This document shows, piece by piece, positions 4,008-25,477 of a stretch of DNA of 64,000 bases. This DNA is from Alphaproteobacteria bacterium (lineage in GTDB: Bacteria > Pseudomonadota > Alphaproteobacteria > UBA828), in assembly GCA_963422645.2 (NCBI GenBank), contig CAXXVO010000002.1, forward strand, positions 32,001 through 96,000, given 5' to 3'. Below the pieces are notes generated by a model that saw only the letters and a list, made by a program, of their open reading frames with translations, ran no database searches and was not told the DNA's origin. Every line of letters starts with the position of its first letter. The stretch's first letter is position 1. A program made the position numbers and the translations under genes.

Positions 4008-4237
4008 TGGATGGATGCGGACGTGGCTGGAACCCTTGGCGCAAGCGAACCTGGGCGTCCCTCGGCGTCCACGCCGCGTGGCAGAGCGTCCGGTATCAAC
4101 GCAGGGGATCAGCGGACAACACCAGGGCCATCGGAGCAGAGGCGGTGTGATGACCGTAACCATCCGCCGAAGACCGCGGGGTATTTGGGGCTGAGTTTGA
4201 CGGCGGGCAGTGCCGGTTGAAGCGCAGGGGTCTCGGC

Positions 4238-6060: not shown

Positions 6061-6188
6061 GCTCAGATGCACAGTATCGTGCGGGATTTAGCGGGGGTCG
6101 AGCCCGTTATCATCGACCGCCGCGATGCAGAACCTCGGCCGCCTGTTCCACTGTCTGAACCGCTCCGGCTTTCCCGGAGGCTCCATCT

Positions 6189-6287
6189 TCAGACTTCCTG
6201 ACCTCGTGATGCTGGCTGTTCTGGGCAGCGTGCCGGGAACTCCTTGAATTCTGATACATTTCGGTTGTTTCAGGCGGTTTTTCGCTG
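6189..6287 (+). repeat. 99-bp exact copy of the IS left end at 34075-34173
   Basis: TCAGACTTCCTGACCTCGTG...GGTTTTTCGCTG is identical at both positions. Confidence 0.9.
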
Positions 6288-6569
6288 ATCTCGGGCCATC
6301 CGTCGGCGCTCTATGACGAGGTGCTGGCGGGATGGCGCCGGCTGGCGCTGCAGGTCACGACCCAGGGTCTGGTGCGAACCGAGGTCGTCTGGTTCAACTA
6401 CGCCCCCGACCGGATGCATTGGGCCAGCCACGCAGGCCGGAACTTCACCGACCGCCAGCGCATCAAGCGCAAGGCAGCCAACTGGGGCCGGCGCTACCAG
6501 GCCTTGCCGCCGGGCGAACGCCTCGCCGTGCTCGCCGCCATGATGGCCGTCGAGGCCGAAGACACGTGA
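6288..6569 (+). pseudogene. C-terminal remnant of a DNA adenine methylase-like gene
   Basis: ISGHPSALYDEVLAGWRR...RTEVVWFNY resembles the C-terminus of Dam/D12-class methylases. The 5' part is missing at the IS-end junction. Confidence 0.55.
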
Positions 6570-6571
6570 CG

Positions 6572-11750: not shown

Positions 11751-11758
11751 GACCGCAA

Positions 11759-12655
11759 CTATCGCTGCACAGCCCGTTGTGCTGGATCATCGGCTGACGA
11801 CGAGACATTCAGCTCTCGCAGCTTGTCTGCGTCGGCAGTAGCGATTTCCCATACTGCGAGATGCTGAAGGGCTCGACCGCCCGGGTCTATTCGGCGCATC
11901 GGGGTACCGAGCACTACGGCCAGCGGGGTCACGGCGCCGCTGTTTCGCGCGTACAGCCCGAGTTGGCGGATGAACGGACCGTAGTCGAGACCGTGAGATT
12001 CCAGCTCTTTCAATAGGGAGTGGACAGTCTTTGGGTATTCGAAAGGCAGGTTCCTATGGAGCAAGATTGCGGGAGCGAAGTGGGCCGGCAGTTCATGACC
12101 ATGCTCCTGCCAGCCGACGATTTCGGTGCGATGGTGTCGTTCACGTAGTTCCGCCAACCCGAACCAAGGCGAGTCGTCAACCGGAGGAGTATCCGCCCTC
12201 GGCACAAATAAGCGGTCAACGATTGGATAGGCGACCGGCGGATGGAGTGGCGCGTCGTCGGGATCGAGGTTGTTGACTGCTGCGTCACGTATCCAGGAGT
12301 CTAACCGCTTGACAAAGCCGTACATCCCGTTTTCCGGGCGCCAGTCGGCGGAACTCCCGTAGAGGCAGAGTTGCCTCCGCCACTGGACGTGATTGAAGCC
12401 GGAGAAGCGAACATGCGGAGTCACGACCAGTGGATGCTCGAACGGGAAGGTAGGAGGTACGAGCACGCAGAAAGCCTCACGTGCTCGCACCGGTAGCCCA
12501 TCCTCGCCCCGCTCCAGGCCGTCGAATCGAATGCTTATCTCGAACAGGCGATAGGCGTCGACAAGCTGAGTGGCTTCGTAGAGCTGTACGGTGCCGTCCG
12601 AGGCATCCGCAATCTCCCTAAGCTGTTCCCAGGCGAGTTCGAAGGCATCGGCCAT
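11759..12655 (-). CDS. Prokaryotic E2 (UBC-like) domain protein, 5' part of the frameshifted fusion
   Basis: VPPTFPFEHP...HVQW.RQLCLY...DWRP...FVKRL..W (E2 with Cys in LCLY). TGATG coupling to the upstream MBL. Confidence 0.8.
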   Translation of the reverse strand: MADAFELAWEQLREIADASDGTVQLYEATQLVDAYRLFEISIRFDGLERGEDGLPVRAREAFCVLVPPTFPFEHPLVVTPHVRFSGFNHVQWRRQLCLYGSSADWRPENGMYGFVKRLDSWIRDAAVNNLDPDDAPLHPPVAYPIVDRLFVPRADTPPVDDSPWFGLAELRERHHRTEIVGWQEHGHELPAHFAPAILLHRNLPFEYPKTVHSLLKELESHGLDYGPFIRQLGLYARNSGAVTPLAVVLGTPMRRIDPGGRALQHLAVWEIATADADKLRELNVSSSADDPAQRAVQR

Positions 12656-13779
12656 CAGGCCCGGCCGTACGTGTGAGCACTTTCGGGAGCTTCGTTTGAG
12701 CCCTTCGCTGCATCGGCGGCTTCCGAAGCGGTCATGGCGGCGGTCGCCACGCCGGCGAGCACGATCTTTCCATCCTTAAGTTCAGCCATGATCGGCTCGT
12801 CCTGATCCATTGTGCAAAGAAAGGACTCGGTGGTCGACTCGTACTGCGTCTTGGCCTTTGCATGGGGAGGGTTGTCACCGGCCTTGTTGGAGGACGGTAC
12901 CGTATTGGAGCTGGATATGACCCGATTGGGTTTCAAAGACGCCTTCTCCATTTCCTCAACGATGTGCTTCTTGAGCTTCTCCTCGTCGTCCCCTTCCTCC
13001 TTCCAGTACATCGCGGCCTTTGAGCAGTGGTGCGGTGCCAGCAGCACGTTCCATGCGAGATCGTCGTCTTCGTTGACGCCAAATATTCTCTTGATGATCG
13101 GGTAGGAAAGATCACCGAGGAGCAGCGCGCGCAGTATCTTGTCTCCGTCGTAAAGCGTGACCTGCATGCCGAGGCTCGTGTCGTTCCGCTCGCCGGCGTC
13201 ATCGTCCTTGAACGGGGCATGGACAAATGCCCGGAACTTGTCAGACACGTCCTTTTCGTCAATCGTGGTCACTTCGTTACCCGGTATCGTCAACCGATCT
13301 TCCGGAAAATCCTTGTAATCGTCCTCTTCCAGCAACTCCGAGTAGCCGAAAATACGCACGCGGTCGCCGGCGCCTGGATCGCCCTTGGCCTCGATCGTCT
13401 TCTTGACGCGCCGTTCCGCCTCCTTCTTGAAATCCTTCGCGTCGTCGCAGAGATCCTTATTATACTCGGCAAAGATTCTGGGCGTGAACCACAACTCGCC
13501 AATATCTACCTTGTCGAGGAGGTCCGAGAAACCCCGGCAATGGTCCTGATCAGGGTGAGTCAGAGCAAACACGGCCAGGTACGGTCGTCCATTGACCTTG
13601 GGCAACCGTTCTGAGAGCTCATCGACAACGGCCCAGCTGGCATCGTCGTCGTCGTCGGACTTTTGCAGATGATTGAGATCAACCTGCAGATACGTCTTCG
13701 AGTCGACAACAATGGATGTGCTGTCGCCATTTGCCACCGGCCAGAAGACCAGTCCGCGGTCAGGAAGTTCGAAGGCCAT
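12655..13779 (-). CDS. Metallo-beta-lactamase-fold hydrolase with a low-complexity C-terminal tail
   Basis: FWPVANGDST, LTHPDQDH, LLGD, APHHCS, ISSS. Ala-rich tail ending SAHTYGRA. Confidence 0.85.
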   Translation of the reverse strand: MAFELPDRGLVFWPVANGDSTSIVVDSKTYLQVDLNHLQKSDDDDDASWAVVDELSERLPKVNGRPYLAVFALTHPDQDHCRGFSDLLDKVDIGELWFTPRIFAEYNKDLCDDAKDFKKEAERRVKKTIEAKGDPGAGDRVRIFGYSELLEEDDYKDFPEDRLTIPGNEVTTIDEKDVSDKFRAFVHAPFKDDDAGERNDTSLGMQVTLYDGDKILRALLLGDLSYPIIKRIFGVNEDDDLAWNVLLAPHHCSKAAMYWKEEGDDEEKLKKHIVEEMEKASLKPNRVISSSNTVPSSNKAGDNPPHAKAKTQYESTTESFLCTMDQDEPIMAELKDGKIVLAGVATAAMTASEAADAAKGSNEAPESAHTYGRA

Positions 13780-13874: not shown

Positions 13875-15755
13875 TCATCGTACACACCGTGTGACAAACC
13901 CATTGCCGCCGCGTGCTGTAAGCAACGACACGCCATCTTCGATGTTTGTTTGAAAGACTTGTCGAGCTACTTTGCCGTACAGCTTGACTGCCTTTGCGTC
14001 TGGATGCCCGTATTGATTGTCGACCCCGGCGCTGATCAAGACCGTGTCCGGGGACACAAGTAGCGCCATTTTGGGATGAGCCGCATTCTTTGAGCCGTGA
14101 TGCGGGGCACTCAAGACGTCGGAAGAAAGACTATTTCCGAACAATCTGGTTAACCGCTTATGCACATGGCTCCGGTTCGATCAACATGCTGTAGGTAAGG
14201 GGTTTTGCATTGGTGGCGATGCGGAAGAGCGAGCGGAAAGCAGCGTGGCGGGTTTTGCGGCGGTTGAAGCGAAAGGCGAACTCATCGAGATAGGCCTGCA
14301 GATGCTTGCGGCGCAGCCCGTGGTAGACGCCTCGCGCCCATCCTTTGAGGTTGGAGAAGACTTGGTGGATCCACGGCAGGACGAGGTGAGCGGCGGTCTT
14401 CCCGACGACATGGACATTGTGGCGATCGGCGGGGACCGCAGCGTAGCCGGACCAGCCGTCGGTTTTCGCGATGGCGTCGGGATCGGCGGCGGTTTCGACG
14501 AAGTGTCCGAGGTCGGCGGCGCCGTAGGAGGAGATTTCGGCCAGCCGCAGGCGGCCCGGGATGGTTCCATCCCCCAGTTCGATGGCGCCGACGATGAGCA
14601 TCTTGCCGTCGTGGCTGCGTCCTTGCCCTCCGGTGGGAGGATCGTCTTTGGTCCGGAATGGAAGGCTGGCCTCGTCGATTTCCACCAGGCCCGACAACGG
14701 GTTGCGCTCGGGGTCGACCATGCTGGCGCGCAGCTTGTGGGCGAGCAGCCAAGCGCTGCGGTAAGAGCCGATACCGAGCTGTTTCTGGAGCTGCAGGGCA
14801 GAGATGCCGTTGGAGTGGGTCGCCATCAGGTAGGCGGCCCAGAACCAGACGGTGAGCGGCAGCTTGCTGGCGTGCAGGATCGTCCCGGCCGTCACCGAGG
14901 TCTGCCGGCGGCAGCCGGCGCACTCGAAGGTGTGTGCTTTTCTGCGCAGCGCCCATCCCTTTTCATGGCCGCACGCGGGACAGACGAAGCCGTCCGGCCA
15001 GCGCATTTCGATCAGCCAGGCGGCGCAGGCGTCATCGTCCGGGAACATGTGCTGGAAGGCGAGGAGGCTGTCGGCGACCTGTTTCATGTGGTGGCTCCGT
15101 CGGCAGGAACGTATAGGCAACATTCTACCCGTTCTCCCGCCCTAACCTCAACCTCAACATCTGGTGGCAAACTCTCGCGACCGGAGCCATGTGCATAAGC
15201 GGTTCTGGTTATTGTGTCCCAGCGGTCGTTTTCCGTATCTCCCGTTATCAGATAAGGAAACCCATTCCCGCCAATTCCCGACAACTTGAGGACTATGCTA
15301 CAGTTGTTGGAATTATCCATGTCTTCACTATGCGGAGAAAACAGCTCATAGGAAAAATACTTGGAAAGCCCATTCAGTTTTCGCGAATGGAGGTCCAACC
15401 GTACCGAGAGCTTCTTTAGGGGCTTTCCTGTATTCCTTCGCCGGCGCTCATGCTTGTTGATAACCTTGAACACGTCGGTGGCATTATCGGTATCCTTGTA
15501 ATACTTCGGATACATGATCCAATTGGGTTTGTACTCTCCCAGAATGTTGTCAACCCCATACGGGTCAGCATGGTCGTTATCGAACCCTGTCAATACGAGG
15601 CCCGCTAAGTCCTGATTGCGGAGAAACACCTGCAATTGCTTCTCGATTGCTTTAGCGTGTTCGTCGGGCCAGCGCGAATCGACGATCACGGCTTCTCCGC
15701 GGTGGCGGATGGCGATCAACTCACCCTGTCCTACGTATACCGTCAGCGTCTGCAT
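13875..15755 (-). pseudogene. ComEC/Rec2-like MBL-fold protein split by an IS1595 insertion
   Basis: 5' part: MQTLTVYVGQGE, TGFDNDH, NSNNCSIVL, ITGDTE..RWDTITR. 3' part: LFGNSL..DVL.APHHGS, ISAG..NQYGHP. Removing the IS and one TSD copy rejoins the halves in frame. Confidence 0.88.
14153..15203 (-). mobile_element. IS1595-family element, complete; transposase at about 14158-15087
   Basis: Perfect 24-bp TIRs ACCGCTTATGCACATGGCTCCGGT and 8-bp TSD TCTGGTTA (14145-14152, 15204-15211). CPAC/CAGC, VEIDE, KTDGW, EFAFRFNRR. Confidence 0.95.
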
Positions 15756-15757
15756 TG

Positions 15758-16684
15758 CTATTGCCCACTCCGTTCGCTGATGGCCCAATACAGCGATTGG
15801 TTCAATTCTCTCTCGAACGCACTCACCGCCTGTGCCGCAGACCCGAACTGCCGTCCGCTGAAGTCCTCGTAGACCCCTGCGCACACGCTTGGCAGCTTCT
15901 TGGCCAGAACTTGGTAATAGGAAGCCTCTCCGTCCTCCGATGTGTCTATTTCGGGGACCGTGACATCTATCGATGACCCGTCAACCAGTTCCAGCTCTCC
16001 CTTCCAATACAGAGTGCCGGCGCGTTTCGACCAGTACGGCTGAAGCGACGGGAAGAGGTCTGGAATGGTCGCACTATCCCTGGTCCGGACTTCCTTGCTG
16101 TGCCCCGCCTCTGTCTTGCTCAGCTCCGGCCTCGATCCAAGGGGCCAAACGGGTGCGTCTCTCGTAAGGGTGACTTTCGCGGGTTCGACCTCGTAAACGG
16201 CATCGTCACCCCGTAACAGGATGTAGTGCCTGACGCTGTAGCGTGACGCCGCCTCTCCACCAGCCAGCCGGGAAACGACGAGTAGTGCATAAAAGAAATC
16301 AAGGTTGTGCTTTTCGTGATTCACTATCCTTCTGTAGGTTGCAATGTCGCCGCCGCTGAGGTTTGGAAATCCATTCACATGATGTGTGTGCCAATTGCCA
16401 AGATGCTCAACTTCAGGGCGCGCGCTCTCGATCTGGCGAAATATCTCCGCTTGGTAGTCGCCGTCCTGGAAGAAACTTGTGGTGGACCTCCGCGCATTCG
16501 GTCCAGCCTCGATGACACCGGTAACCGTGACCTCCAATGAGCCATCGGCGCAGCGCCGAAACCGTCCTACGATCCGCCCACCCGTCTCGTCATGGTCATA
16601 ACGATCGCAGTCATCGAAGATCGACTCCAGTACCAGCGAAGGGATCGATAGCGTAGCGTTGGCATCCTTTAGGTCGCTATTCAT
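15758..16684 (-). CDS. JAB/MPN+ metallopeptidase with an additional C-terminal domain
   Basis: DETGG, LGNWHTHH......SGGD (E, HxH, S, D). RBS GGAGG before the ATG at 16684. About 110 extra residues follow. Confidence 0.85.
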   Translation of the reverse strand: MNSDLKDANATLSIPSLVLESIFDDCDRYDHDETGGRIVGRFRRCADGSLEVTVTGVIEAGPNARRSTTSFFQDGDYQAEIFRQIESARPEVEHLGNWHTHHVNGFPNLSGGDIATYRRIVNHEKHNLDFFYALLVVSRLAGGEAASRYSVRHYILLRGDDAVYEVEPAKVTLTRDAPVWPLGSRPELSKTEAGHSKEVRTRDSATIPDLFPSLQPYWSKRAGTLYWKGELELVDGSSIDVTVPEIDTSEDGEASYYQVLAKKLPSVCAGVYEDFSGRQFGSAAQAVSAFERELNQSLYWAISERSGQ

Positions 16685-17519
16685 TGGAACCTCCACAAAC
16701 TAGGCAACCCTCCTGCCGATGCAGGGTGATTCTTTGCAGCTCGAAGCTCTTGCTGAATGGATGTATCGGTCGATTTCCCCAAACCACGTAATTTTCCGGG
16801 ATAGCGGGAAGAAACGCTGGCCGTTGTGGGGCCAGCCGAGCCAAAGCGTCCATCACATAGCGCACGTGAAAAAGCGTGATGAACCCGATGTCTACCGCGA
16901 GGCCTGGGGAATCCTTTATCTCTTGAGGATCCAATCCGTACATTTGCTCCCGGTCTTCTTCGGAAGCGAGATCAATCTCCCTGACACCGTCTCGGAATTT
17001 AGTTCGTTCGAGAACACCCTCCAGACAAGCAAGACACCCACTCTCGCCCGGACGATAACCAAACACCTCTCCGCCAATCCCGCGGGTGAACACTTTTCCG
17101 ACAACGAATGGTGTTTCATTTCGAACACACAATTCGTTCATTTGAAATCGTGTCGGATCATTGTCGGTGGCAAGTACGACGATGTGGGAGCGTTGGACCT
17201 CACTCTCCAAGCCATGCCACTGCATCAGATCTTCTTCGACTTTCAGTACAGAAATATCTGGGTTTCGATCCTTGAGTACGTCTTCCAGTGCATCAACCTT
17301 CTTGCGACCGACAAATCGAAGTCCGCAAACATGCCGAATCACATTTTCGGATTTCATCACGTCTTTATCGATCAACGTGAAGTGTTTGACGCCTGACATG
17401 ACAAGTTGGAGCGCAACCTGGCCCCCGCCAGACCCGCAACCTGCGATGAGTACACGGGATTCGGCGAAGGCCTCGACGTCAAACAGACCTTCAATTCTCG
17501 CAAATAGGTTTTCGTGCAA
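16677..17519 (-). CDS. ThiF/MoeB-family E1 adenylyltransferase
   Basis: TTG start with GGAGG RBS. FARI, LIAGCGSGG, IDKD.....NVIRH, VGRKKV, ATDN, and Zn pairs CLAC and CLVC. Confidence 0.9.
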   Translation of the reverse strand: MHENLFARIEGLFDVEAFAESRVLIAGCGSGGGQVALQLVMSGVKHFTLIDKDVMKSENVIRHVCGLRFVGRKKVDALEDVLKDRNPDISVLKVEEDLMQWHGLESEVQRSHIVVLATDNDPTRFQMNELCVRNETPFVVGKVFTRGIGGEVFGYRPGESGCLACLEGVLERTKFRDGVREIDLASEEDREQMYGLDPQEIKDSPGLAVDIGFITLFHVRYVMDALARLAPQRPAFLPAIPENYVVWGNRPIHPFSKSFELQRITLHRQEGCLVCGGSNE

Positions 17520-17520
17520 T

Positions 17521-18048
17521 TCAGGTGCCCTCCCGCTCGGGCCAATTGCCGGTAGTGGACCACAATGCATAGCCGCTTAGCCATCGCCGACACAGTTTCA
17601 AGGTATGAACCACATCGTGTCGCCCGGGATTCCAGGTTTCCATGGCGCCAAAAATGCAAAGAGAGCCGTCAAGCCAGAGATGAGGAGATGATGGGTCTAT
17701 CGGATCGGCTGTAACCACCGGGGACTTGTTCGGATACCCGTGGGGTAGCGTGATGCATAAACGGATATCCTTCTCTTGGCCTGGTTCAGTAAGAATTAAT
17801 TGTATTTCCCTATTCTCCGTTATAGATACGCGAAATGGTTCACTTTCGGCAGCAAGACCATCAAGTTCCTGCGATATCCTGTTCGGGGAGATATCAGGCA
17901 GGAAGACGGAAATGGGCACCAGACATGCCTTTTGTTGTCCGCTTCTCTCTACAACATAGGCACGACCGCGTACCGCGACGTCATCCAGAATTTCTCCGGG
18001 TCGGCTGCGGAGATCCATCATGGATAGAGGTTGGAAGTCGATGTGCAT
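17521..18048 (-). CDS. Phd/YefM-like domain fused to an E2 (UBC-like) domain
   Basis: N-term SMMDLRSRPGEILDDV...GRAYVVERSGQQKACLVP (Phd/YefM pattern). C-term LPHGYPNKSP...SPHLW.DGSLCIF...WNP...RWL..Y.LW..TGNWP (E2). Confidence 0.75.
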   Translation of the reverse strand: MHIDFQPLSMMDLRSRPGEILDDVAVRGRAYVVERSGQQKACLVPISVFLPDISPNRISQELDGLAAESEPFRVSITENREIQLILTEPGQEKDIRLCITLPHGYPNKSPVVTADPIDPSSPHLWLDGSLCIFGAMETWNPGRHDVVHTLKLCRRWLSGYALWSTTGNWPEREGT

Positions 18049-18054
18049 GGCAGA

Positions 18055-18429
18055 TCAATGGGCAATGCCCGCACCGGGCCAACGACGCTGAACGCAATAG
18101 ACTTCGTATTTGGCTAGCCATTTGGCCGCTCGCGCAATGACGAAGCGGAGGTCATGACGTCCAGGGTTCCAAAAATTCGGATGCAAGTAGCAAAGTTGAT
18201 TATCGGTGTACCGATGAGGGGAGGGTTGCAGCGCAGGTGTCCGGACGAAAACCTGGGGCATCGCATTCGGGTACGACTGCGGGAACGTTACTGCCAGTGT
18301 GTAGTAGCGGAGCGACGTCTGTAGCGCGACCAAAGCCATCAATCCGCCTGCGTTGGTGGGGTGCGCCTCGACGTAGTCGAAGTGCTGCTGCGCGGTCGCA
18401 ATATCCCGTTGGATTCTTGTCAGATTCAC
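18055..18429 (-). CDS. Stand-alone prokaryotic E2 (UBC-like) protein, 124 aa
   Basis: GTG start overlapping the upstream TGA. FPQSYPNAMP.V...SPHRY.DNQLCY....WNP...KWL.KYEVY.....WPG. Confidence 0.8.
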   Translation of the reverse strand: MNLTRIQRDIATAQQHFDYVEAHPTNAGGLMALVALQTSLRYYTLAVTFPQSYPNAMPQVFVRTPALQPSPHRYTDNQLCYLHPNFWNPGRHDLRFVIARAAKWLAKYEVYCVQRRWPGAGIAH

Positions 18430-18620
18430 CGCGAGTCTCCACGGGCGCTGTATTCGCCTCCTAGGTCTTCCCTCATCGTGATCGGCTTGCGATAGCCGCT
18501 TTCCGCAGCAGCGCTTCCGCCGAGCTCCCGCACCTCGCCGTTGGGCAGGATTTCGATCGGGGAGTCCTCCTCCTCGTCCAAGATCGCCTCGAGTTCGTGG
18601 ATTGTCGGTTTTCTCGCCAT
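18426..18620 (-). CDS. 64-aa acidic peptide, candidate conjugated modifier (...REDLGGEYSARGDSR)
   Basis: First gene of the operon. AGGTGA RBS, GTGA coupling to the E2, GG motif near the C-terminus. Confidence 0.7.
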   Translation of the reverse strand: MARKPTIHELEAILDEEEDSPIEILPNGEVRELGGSAAAESGYRKPITMREDLGGEYSARGDSR

Positions 18621-18644
18621 TTCGCGTCACCTATGAGGATCGTG

Positions 18645-18682
18645 CGGTTATGATAGTTGTACAGTTCATAACCGGCTGTCAA
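18645..18682 (-). promoter_or_regulatory. Promoter (-35 TTGACA) with palindromic operator CGGTTATGA-N12-TCATAACCG and a TGTACA core
   Basis: TGTCAA at 18677-18682, 9-bp inverted arms at 18645-18653 and 18666-18674, TGTACA at 18658-18663. The -10 element is weak or ambiguous. Confidence 0.65.
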
Positions 18683-18889
18683 GGGAAGAAGCCGGCTCTA
18701 GCGGATGGTGTCCTGGGCATCGCGCTACGCGGCACCAAGCCGTGGACATGACGGCGAGCCATGGTCAGGCGTCGTCGAGGGCAAGGCGTTGGAGGAGGGA
18801 GGTGCAGCCCTCCCGCACGATGGCGGGGGCCCGCGCCCGTTTCTGAGGATGGAGGAAGAATCGAGGCGTCGCGGCGAGGCCGGCAAAGG

Positions 18890-19000
18890 TCTACAGGTAC
18901 TCAACCGGATGATCGCCGGACCGATACCGGGAGTAGCGAAACCATGCCTTCGGCAGGTGCGGAGCTTCGAACGGCCCGTCGCCGCGGACATAGACCCGGG
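18890..19000 (-). pseudogene. Degenerate IS66 tnpC fragment
   Basis: RVYVRGDGPFEAPHLPKAWFRYSRYRSGDHPVEYL aligns with WVYVRDDRPFGGPDPPAALFRYSRDRSGDHPVEHL of the tnpC at 4238-5734. Confidence 0.7.
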
Positions 19001-19130
19001 ACCGTACGGTGCTCCCGATCGGGCTGGACCGCTTCGGAATTCCGGATCGTGATTGCGAAGGCGACCGGCATGAAGTACCTCGGTGGCCCTTCGCCGGCCG
19101 GCGGGCCACGAGAGCTTGGTGTGCTCGTCC

Positions 19131-19209
19131 GCAATGTTCGCTGCGCAGCGAATATTGCCAGGTTCTCGAATATCCGCTAGAAGGCATATATTTGCTGCGC
19201 AGCAGAATA
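19131..19209 (+). promoter_or_regulatory. Two GCTGCGCAGC-centred palindromes flanking a TTGCCA-17-TAGAAG promoter (AbiEi operator candidate)
   Basis: GCAATGTTCGCTGCGCAGCGAATATTGC (19131-19158) and TATTTGCTGCGCAGCAGAATA (19189-19209). Confidence 0.65.
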
Positions 19210-19219
19210 GGCTTGAACG

Positions 19220-20317
19220 GTGATGCTTGACTCGGACGTAATGGAAGGACAGCTGGTTGACGGGTTCCTGGAAGCCCTGCGGGAGCTCCCCGATGCGCAG
19301 GCGGAGGTCAGTGAGGCCGAACAGCCGGGCGGCCGCGATCGAGGACATGACGTCCAGGTTGACCTCCGGGTGGGTGGGAAGGCGGCCACCCTGCTGATTG
19401 AGATGAAGAAGGACGTATATCCCCGTGACGTGCGGCAGGTACTTTGGCAGCTCCGCGGCTCCGCACGGAGAAGGCCGCACCCGGAAGAAAAACGGGAAGC
19501 GGTGTTCTTCCTGATCGCCCGATCGATTTCACCTGGAGCCAAGGAGCTGTTGAGGAACGAGCGGGTCGGCTACTACGACAGCGGCGGCAGCCTGTTTCTG
19601 CCCGCCGGCAACATCTACGTGTATGTGGACAAGCCGCCCCCGAAAAGCCTGTCGCGGTCCATCCGTTCCGTGTTTTCGGGCCGTCGTGCGCAAGTGCTGC
19701 ACGCGGTCCTGCTGCGACATCGCGAGTGGTTCGGGGTGAATGACATCGCCAACCAAGCCCGGGTATCGCCCGCGACCGCCTCGCAGGTTCTGATGGAAAT
19801 GGAGAAGTTCGAATGGGTGGTGTCGCGTGGACAGGGGCCAGGAAAAGAACGCCATCTGCAAGAGCCAGGCGCCTTGCTGGATGCATGGGTGAACCAGCAG
19901 GCGGTGATGCGGCCGCTGTCCATGCGGCGTTACTTCGTGCCGTCGGCGGGCGCGGAAGGGCTGGTGGAGAAGTTCGCCGAGGTCTGCGCAGAGAGCAAGG
20001 CCGAATACGCGATCACTCACGAGGCGGCAGGGCAACGGTACGCGCCATTTCTGTCAACTGTCTCCCAGGTGCGTTGCCGGCTGCTGGAGGGCCCGGCAGC
20101 AGATCGGGGTCTTAGCGCAATTGATGCTCGATTCGTGGACCAAGGCGCGAACCTTGCGGTCATCGAGGTCAAGTCGCCGAGCGAGTTGCTGTTTCGCGAA
20201 TTCGTGAACGGGATCTGGCTGGCAAGTGCTGTGCAGGTCTACCTCGACCTGATGCGCAGCGAGGGCCGCGCTAGGGAAATGGCGGAGCACCTGCGCCACG
20301 AAAGGATCGGCTTCTGA
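19220..20317 (+). CDS. Type IV TA antitoxin, AbiEi-like, with central wHTH
   Basis: YYDSGGSLFL, HTH GVNDIANQARVSPATASQVL, LLDAW, GANL, QVYLDL...GRARE.AEHL. Coupled to a nucleotidyltransferase. Confidence 0.8.
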   Translation: MMLDSDVMEGQLVDGFLEALRELPDAQAEVSEAEQPGGRDRGHDVQVDLRVGGKAATLLIEMKKDVYPRDVRQVLWQLRGSARRRPHPEEKREAVFFLIARSISPGAKELLRNERVGYYDSGGSLFLPAGNIYVYVDKPPPKSLSRSIRSVFSGRRAQVLHAVLLRHREWFGVNDIANQARVSPATASQVLMEMEKFEWVVSRGQGPGKERHLQEPGALLDAWVNQQAVMRPLSMRRYFVPSAGAEGLVEKFAEVCAESKAEYAITHEAAGQRYAPFLSTVSQVRCRLLEGPAADRGLSAIDARFVDQGANLAVIEVKSPSELLFREFVNGIWLASAVQVYLDLMRSEGRAREMAEHLRHERIGF

Positions 20318-21231
20318 TGGTGAAGCCCGCGACGTTCGACGGCTACAGCGATCGGTACACGGTCGAATGCGAGCGGGTCCTCGTAACTCTGCTGCGCGGA
20401 CTGGGCCCGTGGAAGGAGTCCGTGTTTCTGGTGGGCGGACTGACTCCCAGATACTTGGTGGCGGCTCGGCCGCCGGAAGTGCCGGCGCATGCCGGCACGC
20501 TCGACGTGGACATCGTCATCGATCTGCAGATCCTGGCTGACACTGCGGGCTATCGCACGCTTGAGGAGAACCTGCGAGCGATGAGGTTCGAGCGGTCGAT
20601 GAACGAGAGAGGCCAGAGGCTTTCATGGCGGTGGCAGACTCGCACCGAAAGCGGTGCGCTGATGGTGGTCGAGCTGCTCGCCGACGCGCCGGACATCGCT
20701 GGTGGCAGGGTCGAACCGCTGCCTACGGAAGGGAACATTTCCGCGCTCAACATCCCGCATTCGTCCATTGTCTTCGAAATGCACCAGGTCGCGGAGATTC
20801 GGGCAGAGCTCCTGGGCGGTGGGGGAAACGCCGTCGAAGTGGTGAGGCACGCCGATTTGGTGAGCTTCACTTGCTTGAAGGCTTTCGCCTTCGACCAGCG
20901 CTTCGAGCGGAAGGACGCCCATGACCTGATGTATTGCATTGAACACGCGGAGCGAGGTCTCGACGGAGCCGCGTACATGTTCCGCGAGGCCTTGGGGGGC
21001 AAGCACGGCGCAGTGATTTGGGACTGTTTGTCAATTCTTCGCAATCGTTTCGCAGGGGACGGCGAAGTCGAGGGGTATCGGAAAGACGGTCCGGTAGCGG
21101 TGGCCCGCTTCGAACTGGGTGAGGGTGACGATGCTGGTCAGCGCGAAGCTCGGTTGCTGAGGCAGCGGGAGGTCAACAGCGTGATGGAGCAACTTCTGGG
21201 TCGGATCGCTTCGGAGGCGGCATGGCGGTAA
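20317..21231 (+). CDS. AbiEii-like nucleotidyltransferase toxin
   Basis: FLVGGL.P, HAGTLDVD, LKAFAF..R...KDAHD. Confidence 0.78.
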   Translation: MVKPATFDGYSDRYTVECERVLVTLLRGLGPWKESVFLVGGLTPRYLVAARPPEVPAHAGTLDVDIVIDLQILADTAGYRTLEENLRAMRFERSMNERGQRLSWRWQTRTESGALMVVELLADAPDIAGGRVEPLPTEGNISALNIPHSSIVFEMHQVAEIRAELLGGGGNAVEVVRHADLVSFTCLKAFAFDQRFERKDAHDLMYCIEHAERGLDGAAYMFREALGGKHGAVIWDCLSILRNRFAGDGEVEGYRKDGPVAVARFELGEGDDAGQREARLLRQREVNSVMEQLLGRIASEAAWR

Positions 21232-21355
21232 AGGCGATTCTTCTCGGGGTCAACAGATTTCCGGATCCCACGATTTCAGAGCTTGGCGGTGCGCGACGAG
21301 ACTGCGCTAGTGCGCTCTGGGCATTGTTCACCGGCACCATCGAGGGGCTGGAGGA
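21222..21355 (+). pseudogene. N-terminal stub of a caspase-like (peptidase C14) domain gene
   Basis: MAVKAILLGVNRFPDPTISELGGARRD..ALWALF matches the first strand and helix of caspase-like domains, then degenerates. Confidence 0.55.
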
Positions 21356-21426
21356 ATGTATCGGAGTCGGTGGGGCATCGCTGTTACAGCCGAAGCCCGG
21401 TATCAAGGGTGGAGCGCTGTGAATTC

Positions 21427-24400
21427 GTAACTGCCCAGGTCGTCTGATTTGTCATTTTGGGCCAGTGGATTGAGGCGTTTCTCGTTCGGAGTTGGTGGAA
21501 AGGGCTTGACGGGAATTTCGGGAAATGACTCAACAACGACATGAGCAATCCCGAGTCGCCGCGCGGCCCTTCGACGGGAGCAGCGCCCGAAACGCCCGCG
21601 CAGAAGATCGCCCGCCTGGAGGAGGAGAACGCCCGGCTTCGGGAGGAAAATGCCTGGCTTCGGCAGCAGAACGCGCGGCTGGAAGAGCAAGTCGCGCGTC
21701 TCGTCGAGCGCATCGAGGAGTTGGAGCGCCGTCTCGGCCTCAACAGCGGCAACAGCGGCAAGCCGCCTTCGAGCGATGGGCTGAGGAAGCCGAATTCGAA
21801 GCGGCGAACCCGAAGCCTGCGCGGCAAATCGGGCCGCAAGCCCGGTGGCCAGCCCGGCCACAAGGGCAAGACGCTGCGCCGCGCCGATCACCCGGATCGG
21901 GTGAAGGATCACGTCCCGGCTTCCTGCAAGGGATGCGGTTCGCCGCTTTCGGACGCGGCCAGGGCGGGAACGCCCGTCGCCCGCCAGGTGTTCGATCTGC
22001 CCGAGCCGAGCCCCCTGGAGGTGACCGAGCACCGGGCGCATGCCAAGTGCTGCGGGCATTGCGGGACGGTGACCCGGGCGGCGTTCCCCGACGGGGTGTC
22101 GGCGCCGGTGCAGTACGGCCCGCGCATTGCCGGGGTGGCGGTCTACCTTCAGCACGCTCACTTCCTGCCGGAGGATCGGCTGTCGCAGGTGATGGCCGAG
22201 CTCTTCGGCGCGCCGGTGACGGCTGCGACGTTGGCGACGATGAGCGAGAGGGCGGCCGAGCGGCTGCGGGACGCGGCCTTGCACATACAGGACCTGGCGG
22301 CGGGCACGGCGCGGGTGAAACACATGGACGAGACCGGCTTGCGGATCGGCGGTCAGACGCAGTGGCTTCATGTCCCAAGTTGGCACTTTTTCCGTTTGTT
22401 CGGGGCCGAATTGGCCAGGTTTTTCCGGCTGACACACCAGATATAGCGTTGACGAGAAGGGCACGCCCCTACATTTGCGATTGCCGTCTCGAACTCCCTT
22501 TGTAGTGCCAGGGAATGGTGGGTTTGCAGGATTTCCCTTGACCCCACCACCAAAGCCGACATATCTGAACCCGCCACGACCAAAACGTGCCGGGCGACAT
22601 GTTCATCAGGGCAACCAAGACCCACACTACCGAAGGCAAGCCGGTCCGCAGCCATCGCCTCGTGCTCTCGCAGCGCATCGGCGACAAGGTCAGGCAGCGC
22701 ACGCTTCTCAACCTCGGCACCGACTATCCGGTGCCGAAGGAGAAATGGCGCGAAGTTGCCGGACTCGCCGAGGCGCTGCTCAACGGCCGCCCGCCGCTGC
22801 TCGAAGCCGCGCCGGACGTGCAGGCCGCAGCCGAGGACATCGTCGCCAAGCTCAGGGCCAGGGGGTTCCGCCCCGAGGCGATACAGGAAGAGGCGCGCAA
22901 GCCCGACATCGCCACCGTCGACCTCGATACCCTGGAGCACGAGAACCCGCGCACGGTCGGCTGCGAGCGCCTGTGCCTCAAGGCCCTCGACGACCTCGGC
23001 TTCGCCGACATCCTCCACGGCCTCGATATCAAGGGCCGCGACGGGCGCATCGCCAGCGCGCTGATCGTCGCCAGGATGGTCCATCCCGCCAGCGAGCGTG
23101 ACACCAGCCGCTGGCTGCGCCGCGACAGCGCGACCGCCGAGCTCCTGGGGCTGGAGGGCGACCGCAAGGCGCTGCGGCGCAAGACGCTCTACCGCATCGG
23201 CGACCTGCTCTGGCGCCACCGGGCCGCCATTCAGCGGGAGCTGTTCAACCGCGAGCGCGCGCTGCTCGACCTGCCCGAAACGATCGCCTTTTACGATCTC
23301 ACCAATGTCCACTACCACGGCCACACCCACGGCCAGCTTCCCAGGTTCGGGCGCTCCAAGCAGAAGCGCGACGACTGTCCGCTGATCACGCTGGCGCTGG
23401 CGCTCGACGGCGCAGGCTTCCCGCGCAGTTGCGAGATCCTGCCGGGCAACGTGAGCGAGCCGGGCACGCTGGAGGACGCGCTGGTCAGGCTCGAGGCGGT
23501 GTGCGGCGGCACGGCGCCGAAGCCCACGGTGGTCATGGACGCGGGCATCGCCACCGAGGAGAACGTCGCGTGGCTGGGCGAGCAGGGCTACGACTGGATC
23601 GCGGTCAGCCGCGGCGCCAGGCCGCCGCTGCCCGAGGGCGGGCCCGAGGCTCTGCTGATCACCAGCGCGCGGCACGAGGTGCGCGCCTGGCGGCTTGCCA
23701 GCGAGGACGGCGAGGCGCGGCTCTACGTCGTCAGCGAGGGCAAGAAGAAGGCCGAGAACGCGATCATCGGCCTCAGGCGGAACCGCTTCGAGGCGGCGCT
23801 GGAAAGGCTCCATAGCGGCCTGCCGGTCAAGGGCCGCCTCAAGCGCTACGACAGGGTGCTGGAGAGCATTGGCCGTCTCAAGCAGCGCTTCTCCACCGTC
23901 GCCAGACACTACGAGGTCACGGTCGAGAAGGCGAAAACCGGCCCCAACGCCGCCGCCGTGCGCTTCAAGCGCAGGCCGCAATACGACGAGGCCGACGAGG
24001 GCGCCGGCGCCTATGTGCTGCGCACCAGCCACGTCGACTGGGATATCGAGACGATCCTGCGGACCTACTGGCGCATCACCGACATCGAGGCCACCTTCCG
24101 CAGCCTGAAATCCGAGCTCGGCCTTCGCCCGATCTGGCACCAGCTCGACCGTCGCATCGCGGCCCACCTGCTGATCGCCGTGCTGGCCTATCACGCCGTG
24201 CATCTGATCCGTACCCGACTGGCCGCGCGGGGCATCCACAAGTGCTGGGCATCGATCCGCGAGGGCATGCGGACCTGGGTGCGGATCACCACGCGACTGC
24301 GCCAGACCGACGGCACCTTGATCGTCAACCGCCAGGACACGCGCCCGGCCGCCGAGGTCGCCCAAATCTCCTCGGCGGCGGGTGTTGACCCCGCCATCCA

Positions 24401-25477
24401 CCGCACGAGGACCCGCCTGACGAGCTGACAGAATCTCACAAAATGTAGTGCCATGTTGGAATCGGCAGAGAAAAATATTGCGCCATATCAAAGCGATAAA
24501 CGACAGCAGAACACAAAAAGTGCCAACCTGGGATGTGATCTGCACGCCGCTGCTGGCGGCGTACCGGGTCAGCGGCAAGCGCGGCGCCCTGCTCTCGGGT
24601 GTCTCCGGCATCGTCGTGCACGATCACTGGAAGCCGTACTTCGCGATGGAAGGGGTGGAGCACGGCCTGTGCAACGCCCATCACCTGCGGGAGTTGCAGG
24701 CGCTGGTGGACATCGAAGGGGAGGCTTGGGCCCGGCGGATGCAGCAGCTCCTGCGCCGAGCCAATCGCGCCGCCCGCATCGCGCTGGACAAGGATATCGC
24801 CGTTCCGGCGAGGCTTGTGGCGCTGATCGAGCGCCGATACGACGAGATCATCGCCGATGCGCTGGCCTTTCACGAGAGCCAACCACCGTTCTCGCCTGGC
24901 AAGAGGAAGAAGCGCCGGAAGCGAAGGATCGGTCACAATCCGGCCTTGAGGCTGCGCGACCACAAATGCGCGGTGCTCCGGTTCCTGATCGACCTCGAGG
25001 TCGGGTTCACGAACAACGAGGCCGAGCGCGACCTTCGGATGATGAAGCTGCGCCAGAAGATCTCCGGGGGCTTCCGGTCCGCGCAGGGGGCCGAGAACTT
25101 CGCCATCCTGCGCAGCGTCATCACCACCGCCAGAAAGCAGGGCTGGAATATCATCGAAGCCCTGACCAGCCCATCGGATCGGCTCATCGCCACCGTCAAG
25201 TGCGCGTAAGCTCACCTGGCACGGGTTCTCCAACAGCGGAGCCATTCTCATAAACGATCATGGTCGACGCCGTGCTGGACCACCCCATAGAATGAAAATC
25301 GGTGCCCGTCGCGCGGGCGGACTTCGGGCCACATCGGGGTAGCTTACCGGTCGCAGTCCGCAAGAGGGGCATCGTGAGCTGTGAAACCCGGCGACCCCAG
25401 AGGAGCACACGGGCGTCGCGTGGGTAGCGTTGTGCCGAATCCCAGAGAATTTTCACAGCAAGAACCTGGGCAGTTAC
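21427..25477 (+). mobile_element. Single-ORF IS66 element copy A (about 1888 bp) interrupted by IS1634
   Basis: TIRs GTAACTGCCCAGG and 8-bp TSD GTGAATTC. Transposase halves at 21541-22373 and 24533-25209. Confidence 0.95.
22374..24532 (+). mobile_element. IS1634-family element; transposase at 22599-24428
   Basis: TIRs CCCA(A/G)GTTGGCACTTTTT, ATGT duplicated on both sides. MFIR..., FYDLTN, FGRSKQKR.DCP, MDAG, IEATFRSLKSELGLRP. Confidence 0.9.

What the first reader, a model, noticed from the sequence alone, without database searches (positions are those of the whole stretch)
18426..18620. 64-aa acidic peptide as a non-beta-grasp protein modifier
Seen: MARKPTIHELEAILDEEEDSPIEILPNGEVRELGGSAAAESGYRKPITMREDLGGEYSARGDSR. 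It is first in the operon, has an RBS and GTGA coupling, looks too short and low-complexity for a ubiquitin fold, and contains (E/D)LGG twice. Established: Ubls end in GG after peptidase trimming, Cap2-type substrates end in aromatic-small residue pairs, and Pup is a disordered peptide ending GGE/Q that is ligated by PafA rather than E1/E2. Inference: the JAB exposes either ...LGG or ...GGEYS, giving a Pup-sized tag routed through E1/E2 chemistry. The two LGG sites could allow alternative processing.
Basis: partly seen in the sequence, partly recalled or inferred. Interest (0 to 1): 0.85.

Follow-up and report, generated by a model that had tools for sequence, protein, structure and literature searches.

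The report
Conserved mini-peptide tag for bacterial E1/E2
A real, widely conserved 57-64 residue peptide that is not ubiquitin-shaped opens a bacterial ubiquitin-like enzyme operon and is most likely the tag those enzymes attach to other proteins, which would make it a new, much smaller kind of protein modifier.

Summary
The 64-aa ORF (18426-18620, minus strand) is a real gene. It has 408 database clusters of homologues. Codon position 3 varies about three times more than position 2. It heads a conserved operon: peptide, E2a, Phd-E2b, E1, JAB, MBL hydrolase. All six genes are present in 50 of 58 loci with enough flank, spread over many phyla. Conservation ends exactly at ...KP(L/I)TMRE(D/N)LGGEY. 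A variable tail of 0-14 residues follows, and several natural homologues are fused in frame to E2a. The peptide alone models as a helix, a hairpin and coil, not a beta-grasp, and has no Pfam, NCBIfam, PHROG, PADLOC or PDB relative. A complex model places its hairpin strand on the last E1 strand and its LGGEY tail at the ATP loop (ipSAE 0.79, best control 0.00). The best reading is a non-beta-grasp modifier activated by E1, passed to E2 and processed by JAB. Whether the mature end is GG or GGEY stays open. The first LGG is not conserved, so alternative processing is unsupported. Here an IS element splits the MBL gene. Phage contigs carry solo copies. My literature searches found no description. 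Everything rests on computation.

The parts
18426..18620 (-). 64-aa peptide gene (P0001). Conserved core is residues 1-57, ending ...LGGEY. Residues 58-64 (SARGDSR) are a non-conserved tail that carries the overlap with the next gene.
18627..18632 (-). Shine-Dalgarno AGGTGA, 6 nt upstream of the ATG.
   Evidence: read from the sequence
18639..18682 (-). Upstream control region. It holds a TTGACA -35-like hexamer (18677-18682) and an inverted repeat CGGTTATGA-N12-TCATAACCG (18645-18674). It also holds a CGCACGAT box (18639-18646). Similar GTGCAAT/CGCACGA boxes recur upstream of the peptide gene in many loci. This is a possible operator.
   Evidence: the promoter scan found no full sigma-70 site
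18055..18429 (-). E2a: a 124-aa UBC-fold protein with conserved His72 and Cys80. Its GTG start overlaps the peptide's stop codon.
17521..18048 (-). E2b: a paralogous UBC-like domain with the same His/Cys motif, preceded by a Phd/YefM-like N-terminal domain (weak Pfam hit).
16677..17570 (-). E1: a ThiF-family adenylation enzyme of 297 aa with a GxGxxG loop at residues 44-49 and Asp136. Four Cys (179, 182, 289, 292) are arranged as two CxxC pairs. No conserved Cys lies between 183 and 288. Tyr211 is invariant.
15758..16696 (-). JAB/JAMM peptidase of 312 aa. An HxH...SxxD motif is visible in the translation. It has an extra C-terminal half of unknown fold.
15205..15755 (-). 5' fragment of the MBL-fold (ComEC-like) hydrolase gene, cut by an IS. 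The start at 15755 is inferred from homologues.
14151..15204 (.). 1054-bp IS1595-family insertion (transposase ORF 14158-15123) that splits the MBL gene.
13875..14150 (-). 3' fragment of the same MBL gene.

Best explanation
The 64-aa ORF encodes the modifier ('tag') of a ubiquitin-like conjugation system that does not use a beta-grasp protein. Proposed mechanism, with each step marked as shown or inferred. (1) The peptide is translated first and is translationally coupled to E2a (shown in the sequence). In some lineages it is made as an in-frame peptide-E2a pre-protein (shown in database sequences). (2) The JAB peptidase removes whatever follows the conserved core: a tail of 0-14 residues or the fused E2a (inferred, by analogy with the BubAB cleavage described in PMC11601596). 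The cut is either after Gly55 or after Tyr57, and I rate these about even. (3) The peptide docks on the ThiF-type E1 by adding its strand 21-28 (P-IEILPNG) to the last E1 strand (277-287). It threads residues 46-57 to the ATP loop and Asp136 region, where its C-terminal carboxylate is adenylated (supported by a structure model only). (4) The E1 has no conserved crossover-loop cysteine. The acyl group therefore probably passes straight to the conserved Cys of E2b and/or E2a, perhaps by way of invariant Tyr211 (inferred). (5) An E2 transfers the peptide to a lysine of an unknown target, either a phage protein or the operon's own MBL hydrolase (inferred). JAB also reverses the conjugation (inferred). 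The setting is anti-phage defence. The enzymes are nearest to CBASS/6A-MBL Cap2/Cap3-type proteins. The locus is accessory and sits beside a bona fide 6A-MBL system. In this particular genome the MBL gene is broken by an IS, so the full system may not work here.
For: It is a real gene under protein-level selection. Synteny: of 58 loci with at least 3.8 kb downstream, 56 have E2a, 56 E1, 56 JAB and 54 MBL; 53 have all four and 50 have all six genes. The peptide is often the best-conserved protein of the operon. In L013 it is 72% identical, against 47-63% for E2a, E2b, E1 and JAB. In the 131-sequence alignment G54 and G55 are the only invariant columns, and L53, E56 and Y57 are at least 90% conserved. 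Conservation ends at Y57, followed by tails of 0-14 residues; 12 of 64 loci end exactly at EY. Six natural in-frame peptide-E2a fusions exist (P0144, P0258, P0272, P0276-P0278). This parallels the Ubl-E2 pre-protein BubAB, which a JAB domain cleaves after its conserved Gly (passages of PMC11601596). Complex model of E1 + ATP + Mg + peptide 1-57: ipSAE 0.79/0.79/0.81, best of 3 controls 0.00. That mark was reached by 58 of 80 solved complexes and 2 of 110 mismatched pairs. These counts hold only roughly, because my own alignments were used and ligands rode along. The runs agree in at least 91% of contacts and the partner's pLDDT is at least 69. Interface residues are peptide 19, 21-28 and 46-57 against E1 44, 46-49, 134-136, 138, 158-168, 183-190 and 277-287. 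The pass is unlikely to come from memory of the peptide, which has no relative among solved chains. E2a and E2b have a UBC fold with conserved His and Cys. E1, E2 and JAB hit the PADLOC CBASS E1-E2, E2 and JAB models. Weak sign of transcription: two metatranscriptome contigs from one study cover 18218-18552 and 18374-18581 at 95-99% identity, and the first bridges the peptide/E2a junction. Minimal four-gene variants (peptide-E2a-E1-JAB) show that the peptide travels with the conjugation enzymes and not with the MBL.
Against: No experiment shows cleavage, adenylation, thioester formation or conjugation. The complex score is the model's own confidence, and its E1 side resembles solved E1-Ubl complexes. 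None of 260 homologues with an xGG motif ends at GG, and 252 continue with EY. This is unlike ubiquitin-type precursors, whose residues after GG vary, so either a C-terminal Tyr is activated (unusual for an E1) or EY has another role. The E1 has no conserved catalytic Cys in the crossover region. In the folded natural fusion the peptide part does not gain confidence (pLDDT 57-80, as when alone) while E2a scores 93-98, so no peptide-E2a docking is seen. No target is known. The RNA contigs may contain DNA and come from a close relative, not from this exact genome. The MBL gene of this copy is disrupted.
Confidence: 0.6

Rival explanations
1. Non-conjugated regulatory subunit or pseudo-substrate. 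The peptide binds the E1 and occupies its active site as an inhibitor or assembly factor, in the manner of an antitoxin. It is removed or outcompeted on infection. The phage-borne copies would then be E1 blockers.
For: The model supports binding to E1 but says nothing of chemistry. The invariant EY after GG could act as a cap that prevents adenylation. Phage contigs carry solo homologues that keep both E1-contact elements. The operon also holds a Phd/YefM-like antitoxin-type domain on E2b.
Against: An inhibitor does not explain why GG is the only invariant pair. It also does not explain a junk tail that varies freely after Y57, or repeated in-frame fusion to the N-terminus of E2a. With no other modifier encoded, two Cys-bearing E2s and a JAB would have no substrate. 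The MBL C-terminus is not conserved, unlike the ...AHTYG-xx tail of the neighbouring 6A-MBL enzyme.
Confidence: 0.15
2. Adaptor that recruits E2a to the E1, or an acceptor (for example through invariant Lys45) on which something else is built. It would not be a C-terminally activated tag.
For: Natural peptide-E2a fusions would tether E2a to the E1 through the peptide's docking strand. Lys45 is conserved in 64 of 65 sequences. The E1 has no UFD-like E2-binding domain detectable by Pfam.
Against: Most loci encode the peptide separately (64 of 64 genome loci). The fold of the fusion shows no docking on E2a. The tail is modelled at the adenylation site, which an adaptor would block. The pattern of GG invariance and a variable tail is that of a processed C-terminus.
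Confidence: 0.1
3. RiPP-like precursor. The E1 adenylates the peptide's C-terminus, or a Glu side chain, to make a modified peptide product. MccB does this on MccA and PaaA on PaaP.
For: The E1 profile's best solved relatives by sequence are MccB (3.3e-19), marginally ahead of MoeB (3.4e-18) and ThiF (1.3e-17). PaaA also matches (2.5e-11). The substrate is a short, non-globular peptide.
Against: The match to MccB starts at E1 residue 29 against MccB residue 111-114, so the N-terminal peptide-clamp region of MccB is not matched. Two UBC-fold E2s with conserved Cys and a JAB isopeptidase have no role in RiPP pathways. The operon genes searched with Pfam and NCBIfam show no exporter or immunity protein. 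The E-value difference from MoeB/ThiF is negligible.
Confidence: 0.05

Closest known systems
Type I Bub (6E) pathway: BubAB pre-protein, BubCD JAB-E1 (PMC11601596, passages read)
   Same: The modifier is encoded next to, and sometimes fused in frame to, an E2. A JAB peptidase is available to expose the C-terminus. The E1 lacks a crossover-loop cysteine and has an invariant Tyr in that region. The context is defence.
   Different: BubA is a beta-grasp Ubl with one to three domains that ends in Gly after cleavage. The Bub E2 uses Ser, whereas these E2s keep Cys. Here the modifier is a 57-residue helix-hairpin-tail peptide ending in GGEY, there are two E2 paralogues, and there is no DUF6527 protease.
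Type II CBASS and 6A-MBL (Cap2 E2-E1 fusion, Cap3 JAB; NCBIfam NF058523/NF058524)
   Same: The E1, E2 and JAB are nearest to these families in PADLOC, with weak NCBIfam hits for E1 and JAB. An MBL-fold enzyme is the associated effector. The conjugated moiety is not a beta-grasp. A true 6A-MBL system lies directly downstream in this window.
   Different: In CBASS and 6A-MBL the enzyme's own C-terminus is what gets conjugated (statement in PMC11601596). The neighbouring 6A-MBL enzyme indeed has a conserved ...AHTYG-xx tail. Here the MBL tail is not conserved and a separate peptide is present. E2, E1 and JAB are separate genes. All NCBIfam scores are far below cut-off: 57.1 and 45.6 against 320, and 36.2 against 220.
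Pup / pupylation (recalled from general knowledge; no call)
   Same: Similar size (about 60 residues) and largely unstructured when alone. There is a Gly-Gly-Glu near the C-terminus, and the peptide presumably folds on binding its enzyme.
   Different: Pup ends in GGQ/GGE and is ligated through the Glu side chain by PafA, a glutamine-synthetase-like ligase, with Dop as deamidase. Here the operon genes searched show no PafA/Dop-type protein, the motif is GGEY, and the machinery is E1/E2/JAB. No Pfam family matches the peptide at E <= 1.
Bil (BilA-D) anti-phage ubiquitin-like system (as summarised in PMC11601603 and PMC11601596)
   Same: A four-gene logic of modifier + E2 + JAB + E1 without an E3. 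The minimal variants L026 and L047 have exactly this content. By analogy the likely outcome is tagging of phage proteins.
   Different: BilA is a beta-grasp, ISG15-like Ubl. The Bil E1 has IAD-AAD-CYS domains, whereas here it is a single ThiF-type adenylation domain of about 297 aa.
MccA/MccB (microcin C7) and PaaP/PaaA
   Same: A ThiF-type adenylating enzyme acts on a short ribosomal peptide. MccB is the top solved sequence relative of the E1.
   Different: There is no peptide-clamp region, no C-terminal Asn and no exporter. E2s and a JAB are present.

Membership tests
Beta-grasp ubiquitin-like modifiers (Ub, ThiS/MoaD, SAMP, BilA, BubA) | Beta-grasp fold (mixed sheet of 4-5 strands gripping a helix) | tested here: not met
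   The AF2 model with 131 sequences has helix 7-16, one hairpin (22-24/30-32) and the rest coil; pLDDT 66.7, pTM 0.26. Foldseek against the PDB gave 0 matches at E <= 0.001 and none to a Ubl. The core is only 57 residues.
Beta-grasp ubiquitin-like modifiers | C-terminal Gly(-Gly) that is, or becomes, the free end | tested here: inconclusive
   G54 and G55 are invariant, but 0 of 260 homologues end at GG and 252 continue with EY. Processing was not testable here.
Beta-grasp ubiquitin-like modifiers | Activated by an E1 adenylation domain with the tail in the ATP site | tested here: inconclusive
   The model supports binding: ipSAE 0.79 against a best control of 0.00, with the tail touching E1 residues 44, 46-49 and 134-136. 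No biochemistry.
Beta-grasp ubiquitin-like modifiers | Gene neighbourhood with E1, E2 and JAB | tested here: met
   E2a, E1 and JAB are each present in 56 of 58 loci with enough flank.
Pup / UBact | C-terminal GGQ or GGE as the last residues | tested here: not met
   The motif is LGGEY followed by 0-14 more residues. Glu is never the last residue in the 64 loci.
Pup / UBact | PafA/Dop ligase-deamidase partners | tested here: not met
   The operon genes are E2, E2, E1 (ThiF), JAB and MBL by Pfam, PADLOC and NCBIfam. The rest of the genome was not searched for PafA.
Pup / UBact | Sequence membership (Pfam Pup family) | tested here: not met
   No Pfam family at E <= 1 for P0001.
6A-MBL / type II CBASS (Cap2-Cap3) | Fused E2-E1(-JAB) protein that passes the NCBIfam cut-off | tested here: not met
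   The genes are separate. NF058523 scores are 57.1 (E1) and 45.6 (JAB) against a cut-off of 320.
6A-MBL / type II CBASS (Cap2-Cap3) | The conjugated moiety is the conserved C-terminal tail of the associated enzyme | tested here: not met
   The C-termini of this operon's MBL vary in sequence and length over 54 loci. The neighbouring true 6A-MBL enzyme ends in a conserved AHTYG-xx in 4 of 4 sequences.
MccB-type peptide adenylation (RiPP) | N-terminal peptide-clamp domain on the E1-like enzyme, and a heptapeptide ending in Asn | tested here: not met
   The profile match covers E1 29-182 against MccB 111-264, so no clamp region is matched. The peptide ends in GGEY.
UBC/E2 superfamily (for E2a and E2b, the peptide's presumed carriers) | UBC fold with a conserved catalytic Cys | tested here: met
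   The profile hits eukaryotic E2s at 6e-7. The E2a part of the model has pLDDT 93-98 and matches Ube2W, UFC1, Ubc9 and a CBASS CdnG-E2 at probability 1.00. Cys80 is at least 90% conserved and His72 invariant in 26 sequences. Pfam hits alone are below cut-off.

The most novel reading that the evidence does not exclude
This is a third kind of prokaryotic protein tag. It is a ~57-residue 'mini-ubiquitin' reduced to an E1-docking beta-strand plus a C-terminal tail. It is activated by a cysteine-less ThiF-type E1 and handed to two E2s. Its mature end is ...GGEY, so an E1 would activate a C-terminal tyrosine (or, more radically, the Glu56 side chain, Pup-fashion). The tag is used in anti-phage defence, and phages carry solo copies as decoys that compete for the host E1.
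Probability: 0.25. Interest if true: 0.92.

Novelty: new variant of a known kind. Interest (0 to 1): 0.8.

Why it matters
According to the sources I read, every E1/E2-handled modifier is either a beta-grasp protein or, in CBASS and 6A-MBL, the tail of a whole enzyme. If a free 57-residue peptide does the same job, the beta-grasp fold is not needed for E1/E2 chemistry. A docking strand and a flexible tail would be enough. That bears on how ubiquitin signalling arose. It would also fill the gap between Pup-like disordered tags and ubiquitin-like cascades. The family is large: 408 clusters at 90% identity. It spreads across many bacterial phyla and occurs in one archaeal MAG. It is missing from the Pfam, NCBIfam, PHROG and PADLOC copies searched, so genome annotation overlooks it. 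The operon is small and has clear mutational handles: GG, EY, ILPNGE, the E2 cysteines, E1 Asp136 and Tyr211. This makes the question directly testable. Solo copies in phages suggest a new counter-defence route.

Tried and rejected
Family libraries gave nothing for the peptide: Pfam at E <= 1, PADLOC, NCBIfam and PHROGs. The protein atlas gave no usable hit. The profile search of solved structures gave one chance hit at E 0.83. Foldseek of the solo model gave nothing at E <= 0.001.

The sigma-70 and terminator scan of 18000-19300 found 0 sites. I therefore make no promoter claim beyond a -35-like hexamer.

I considered that the MBL enzyme, as in 6A-MBL, is the conjugated moiety and the peptide its acceptor. 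I rejected this as the main reading because the MBL C-terminus is not conserved.

I considered that the peptide packs on E2a as a domain. The fold of the natural fusion P0278 gave no gain in confidence for the peptide part. That tool returns no inter-domain error, so this is a weak negative.

I considered a fixed structural role for the phage homologues, because L070 and L072 place them in head modules. L067, L069 and L071 place them among replication, DNA-modification or unknown genes, so no fixed role follows.

P0175 (965 aa, 12 matched stretches, no LGG) was not followed up; it may be a repeat or low-complexity artefact. P0271 is a frameshifted read-through and not a fusion.

Literature: seven searches found no paper describing a peptide modifier in an E2-E2-E1-JAB-MBL operon. 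Burroughs et al. 2009 and 2011 are not held, and van den Berg et al. 2024 was seen only through a review passage. Supplements are closed. A prior description in any of these cannot be excluded. The Pfam label PF26395 precomputed on the fusion proteins could not be looked up. It appears only on proteins that contain E2a, so I take it to cover E2a and not the peptide.

RNA: parts of 17500-18800 without contig cover say nothing.

The search of 40 relatives found no copy in those searched. Completeness of these genomes ranges from 62 to 100%.

Full report
OBSERVATION. AGGTGA lies 6 nt before its ATG. Its TGA stop overlaps the GTG start of the next gene as GTGA. Nucleotide homology to the nearest related locus starts only about 120 bp upstream, and the neighbouring upstream ORF is divergent. 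The peptide gene is therefore first in its operon. The sigma-70 scan found no full promoter.

IS IT A GENE? Yes. A word-indexed search found 408 clusters with E <= 0.01 among 409 candidates; the listed hits are nearly all 58-73 residues long. An exhaustive HMMER search of 1.84 billion representatives found 276 with E <= 0.001 and 58 with E <= 1e-10. In a codon alignment of 65 sequences the mean entropy at codon positions 1/2/3 is 0.69/0.49/1.52 bits. Invariant residues such as P26, G28, T48 and G55 have nearly saturated third positions. That is selection on a protein. Two metatranscriptome contigs from one study cover 18218-18552 and 18374-18581 at 95-99% identity, and the first bridges the junction with the next gene. 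This is a weak hint of co-transcription, because DNA carry-over cannot be excluded.

CONTEXT. A scan of one genome per species returned 66 loci. Their record titles name Alpha- and Gammaproteobacteria, Acidobacteriota, Binatia, Gemmatimonadota, Myxococcota, Planctomycetota, Verrucomicrobiota, Elusimicrobiota, Armatimonadota, Nitrospirales, Thermodesulfobacteriota and one Methanosarcinales MAG. tblastn with the window's proteins shows the same gene order in nearly all of them: peptide, E2a, E2b with a Phd/YefM-like N-domain, ThiF-type E1, JAB, MBL hydrolase. Of the 58 loci with at least 3.8 kb downstream, 50 have all six genes and 53 have E2a+E1+JAB+MBL. L004 and L015 lack E2b. L026 and L047 are four-gene forms (peptide-E2a-E1-JAB) after which the gene direction changes. 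L054 keeps only the peptide and E2a. L066 has only an N-terminal look-alike. The peptide gene is single-copy in its own genome. It was not found in the 40 relatives searched, 20 of them of the same genus. It is therefore accessory.

THE ENZYMES. The E1 matches Pfam ThiF at 1.3e-30. E2a and E2b are paralogues sharing YPN...PH(R/L)(Y/W)...C...WNPGxH(D/N). Their Pfam hits are below cut-off. A profile of the two hits eukaryotic E2s at 6e-7. The E2a part of a natural fusion folds with pLDDT 93-98 and matches Ube2W, UFC1, Ubc9 and a CBASS CdnG-E2 structure at probability 1.00. E1, E2 and JAB hit the CBASS E1-E2, E2 and JAB models of PADLOC. The MBL hits the MBL effectors of Lamassu, DRT, Avs1a and PDC-M48 there, and the ComEC MBL domain in NCBIfam. 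Between E1 residues 183 and 288, no cysteine occurs in 10% or more of 52 sequences, while Tyr211 is invariant. This recalls the cysteine-less Bub E1 with its invariant crossover-loop tyrosine (PMC11601596, passages). In this window a 1054-bp IS1595 element (14151-15204) splits the MBL gene.

THE PEPTIDE. In 131 diverse sequences only G54 and G55 are invariant. L10, E11, L14, I24-E29 (ILPNGE), K45, P46, T48, E51, L53, E56 and Y57 are at least 90% conserved. Conservation stops at Y57. In 64 loci the motif is LGGEY 63 times and LGGEH once. The tail after it is 0-14 residues long and of no fixed sequence, and 12 peptides end exactly at EY. In 26 of 63 loci the E2a start overlaps the peptide's stop by 4 nt, which explains why a tail exists at all. 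Among 260 database homologues with an xGG motif, 252 continue with EY, none ends at GG and 14 end two residues after GG. The first LGG of this copy is present in only 18 of 64 loci, so the 'two sites' idea fails. Six different proteins are in-frame peptide-E2a fusions. Others carry Cys-rich or unknown C-terminal extensions, and one (P0240) has a Lar-like zinc ribbon before the module. The peptide alone models as helix 7-16, a hairpin at 22-24/30-32 and coil (pLDDT 66.7, pTM 0.26). It has no structural match and no family in Pfam, NCBIfam, PHROGs or PADLOC. It has no relative among solved chains.

DOES IT MEET THE E1? A complex model of the E1 (52-row alignment), ATP, Mg and peptide 1-57 (131-row alignment) scored ipSAE 0.79, 0.79 and 0.81. 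Three controls scored 0.00. The mark was reached by 58 of 80 solved complexes and 2 of 110 mismatched pairs. These counts hold only roughly here, because my own alignments were used and ligands rode along. The runs agree in at least 91% of contacts, and the partner's pLDDT is at least 69. Peptide residues 19 and 21-28 lie along E1 277-287 with the lowest errors. Peptide 46-57 touches E1 44 and 46-49 (the GxGxxG loop), 134-136, 138, 158-168 and 183-190. From general knowledge of ThiF/MoeB enzymes, which I recall rather than tested, that loop and the conserved Asp hold ATP-Mg. The tail is therefore placed as a substrate for adenylation would be. The model supports binding; it does not show it.

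MECHANISM. I read the peptide as the system's modifier. It is made first, sometimes as a pre-protein with E2a. JAB trims it. It docks on E1 by strand addition and is adenylated at its C-terminus. It then passes to the E2 cysteines, perhaps directly, as the E1 has no cysteine for it. Finally it is attached to a target, with JAB reversing the bond. Shown: gene order, conservation pattern, fusions, folds of the enzymes. Modelled: E1 binding. Inferred: every chemical step and the target. The Bub precedent of a Ubl-E2 pre-protein cut by a JAB domain after its conserved Gly is the closest documented parallel.

The mature end is open. GG is the most invariant element, and JAMM enzymes and E1s usually act at Gly. 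On the other hand the conservation boundary is at Y57, EY is kept in 252 of 260 homologues, and no homologue ends at GG. I rate the two about even.

RIVALS. The three rivals are a non-conjugated E1-binding regulator, an adaptor or acceptor, and a RiPP-like substrate. On the last, MccB is nominally the best solved relative of the E1 (3.3e-19), against 3.4e-18 for MoeB. Each rival explains the binding. None explains the invariant GG with a free-varying tail, the E2 fusions, and the presence of two Cys-E2s plus a JAB with no other substrate. The MBL tail is not conserved, unlike the ...AHTYG-xx tail of the adjacent 6A-MBL enzyme.

COMPARISON AND NOVELTY. The papers I could read list type II CBASS/Pycsar/MBL, Bil types I and II, and Bub types I and II as the bacterial ubiquitination-like operon families. 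Their modifiers are beta-grasp Ubls or the enzyme's own tail. 6A-MBL is named as an anti-phage system in a review passage and a preprint's methods and in NCBIfam. The present operon shares the enzyme families but fails the membership tests for each named system. Seven literature searches found no description of its peptide. Two older Aravind-group papers and the 6A-MBL discovery paper were not available, and supplements are closed. I therefore class it as a new variant of a known kind, not as categorically new.

SIDE OBSERVATIONS. Directly downstream lies a true 6A-MBL system: the MBL scores 290 bits against a cut-off of 220. Its Cap2_3 is split into an E2 gene and an E1-JAB-patatin gene. This pairing recurs in L001, L003 and L023, and L021 has weaker matches to both genes. 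Seven IMG/VR contigs carry peptide homologues that keep ILPNGE and, in six of seven, LGGEY. They have no E2, E1, JAB or MBL within the 12 kb or less of sequence fetched around the gene. Their neighbours are head genes in two contigs and replication, DNA-modification or unknown genes in others. Upstream of the peptide gene many loci show GTGCAAT/CGCACGA-type boxes between a TTGACA and the SD. The two E2b-less loci L004 and L015 instead share a different palindrome. This suggests that the Phd-like domain of E2b is the operator-binding autoregulator.

VERDICT. The peptide is a docking-strand-plus-tail tag. Its conservation ends at GGEY. It recurs as a natural E2a fusion. A model places it on its E1.

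Noticed in passing
window 14151-15204: A 1054-bp IS1595-family element (transposase ORF 14158-15123) is inserted in the operon's MBL hydrolase gene. The closest relative, L001, is 88-89% identical on both flanks and has the gene intact. The effector of this copy is therefore probably dead.
   Followed up: yes
window 9237-13779 (minus strand): Directly downstream lies a true 6A-MBL anti-phage system. Its MBL enzyme (12655-13779) passes the NF058524 cut-off. Its Cap2_3 is split into an E2 gene (11759-12655) and an 837-aa E1-JAB protein with a C-terminal patatin phospholipase domain (9237-11750). The MBL ends in a conserved ...AHTYG plus 2-3 residues in 4 of 4 sequences. The same pairing with the peptide operon recurs in L001, L003 and L023; L021 has weaker matches to both genes.
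   Followed up: partly
L067-L073 (IMG/VR contigs); protein P0240: Phage contigs carry solo homologues of the peptide that keep ILPNGE and, in six of seven, ...LGGEY. None has an E2, E1, JAB or MBL within the 12 kb or less of sequence fetched around the gene. In L070 the module heads a 356-aa ORF between the portal and scaffold genes. In L072 it lies between the major head and neck genes. In L069 it lies near a nucleoside deoxyribosyltransferase, a DNA methyltransferase and terminase. P0240 joins a Lar-like restriction-alleviation zinc ribbon to the module. These are candidate decoys or counter-defence genes.
   Followed up: partly
proteins P0144, P0258, P0272, P0276, P0277, P0278: These are natural in-frame fusions of the peptide to E2a, with 1-13 linker residues after ...LGGEY. 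They are analogous to the BubAB Ubl-E2 pre-protein. The precomputed Pfam label PF26395 appears only on four of these fusions (P0272, P0276-P0278) and could not be looked up.
   Followed up: partly
window 18639-18682; the 110 nt upstream of the peptide gene in L001-L065: Repeated GTGCAAT/CGCACGA-type boxes lie between a TTGACA hexamer and the SD in many loci. In the window there is an inverted repeat CGGTTATGA-N12-TCATAACCG. Two loci that lack the Phd-E2b gene (L004, L015) share a different palindrome, GTGTTTCAC-GG-GTGAAACAC. This suggests autoregulation by the Phd/YefM-like domain of E2b.
   Followed up: partly
window 16677-17570 (E1): In 52 sequences the E1 has no cysteine in 10% or more of them between residues 183 and 288, the crossover-loop region. 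Tyr211 is invariant. This resembles the cysteine-less Bub E1, which uses a tyrosine oxyester, yet both E2s here keep their cysteine.
   Followed up: partly
L026 8001-10190; L047 8001-10379: These are minimal four-gene variants (peptide-E2a-E1-JAB) without E2b or MBL, followed by genes on the other strand. The conjugation module can stand alone, as in Bil systems.
   Followed up: partly
L025 (Methanosarcinales MAG): An archaeal MAG contig carries the complete six-gene operon, with the peptide 65% identical to the window's. This points to transfer between domains, or to a binning error.
   Followed up: no
window 2809-8104 and 19220-25250: The operon sits in a patch of mobile elements: IS66-family transposases (4096-5694, 6332-8104, 21541-22446), a DDE_Tnp_1 transposase (22587-24428), and a DruA-like domain fused to a transposase-associated domain (2809-4194). 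The divergent upstream ORF 19220-20317 has only weak HTH/AbiEi-type hits, and ORF 20317-21231 has no Pfam family.
   Followed up: no
L066 7992-8498: A 168-aa ORF begins with a look-alike of the peptide's first ~48 residues, including EILPNGEIR. It lacks the KPLTMRExLGGEY end and any E2, E1, JAB or MBL neighbour. The N-terminal module may have a life of its own.
   Followed up: no
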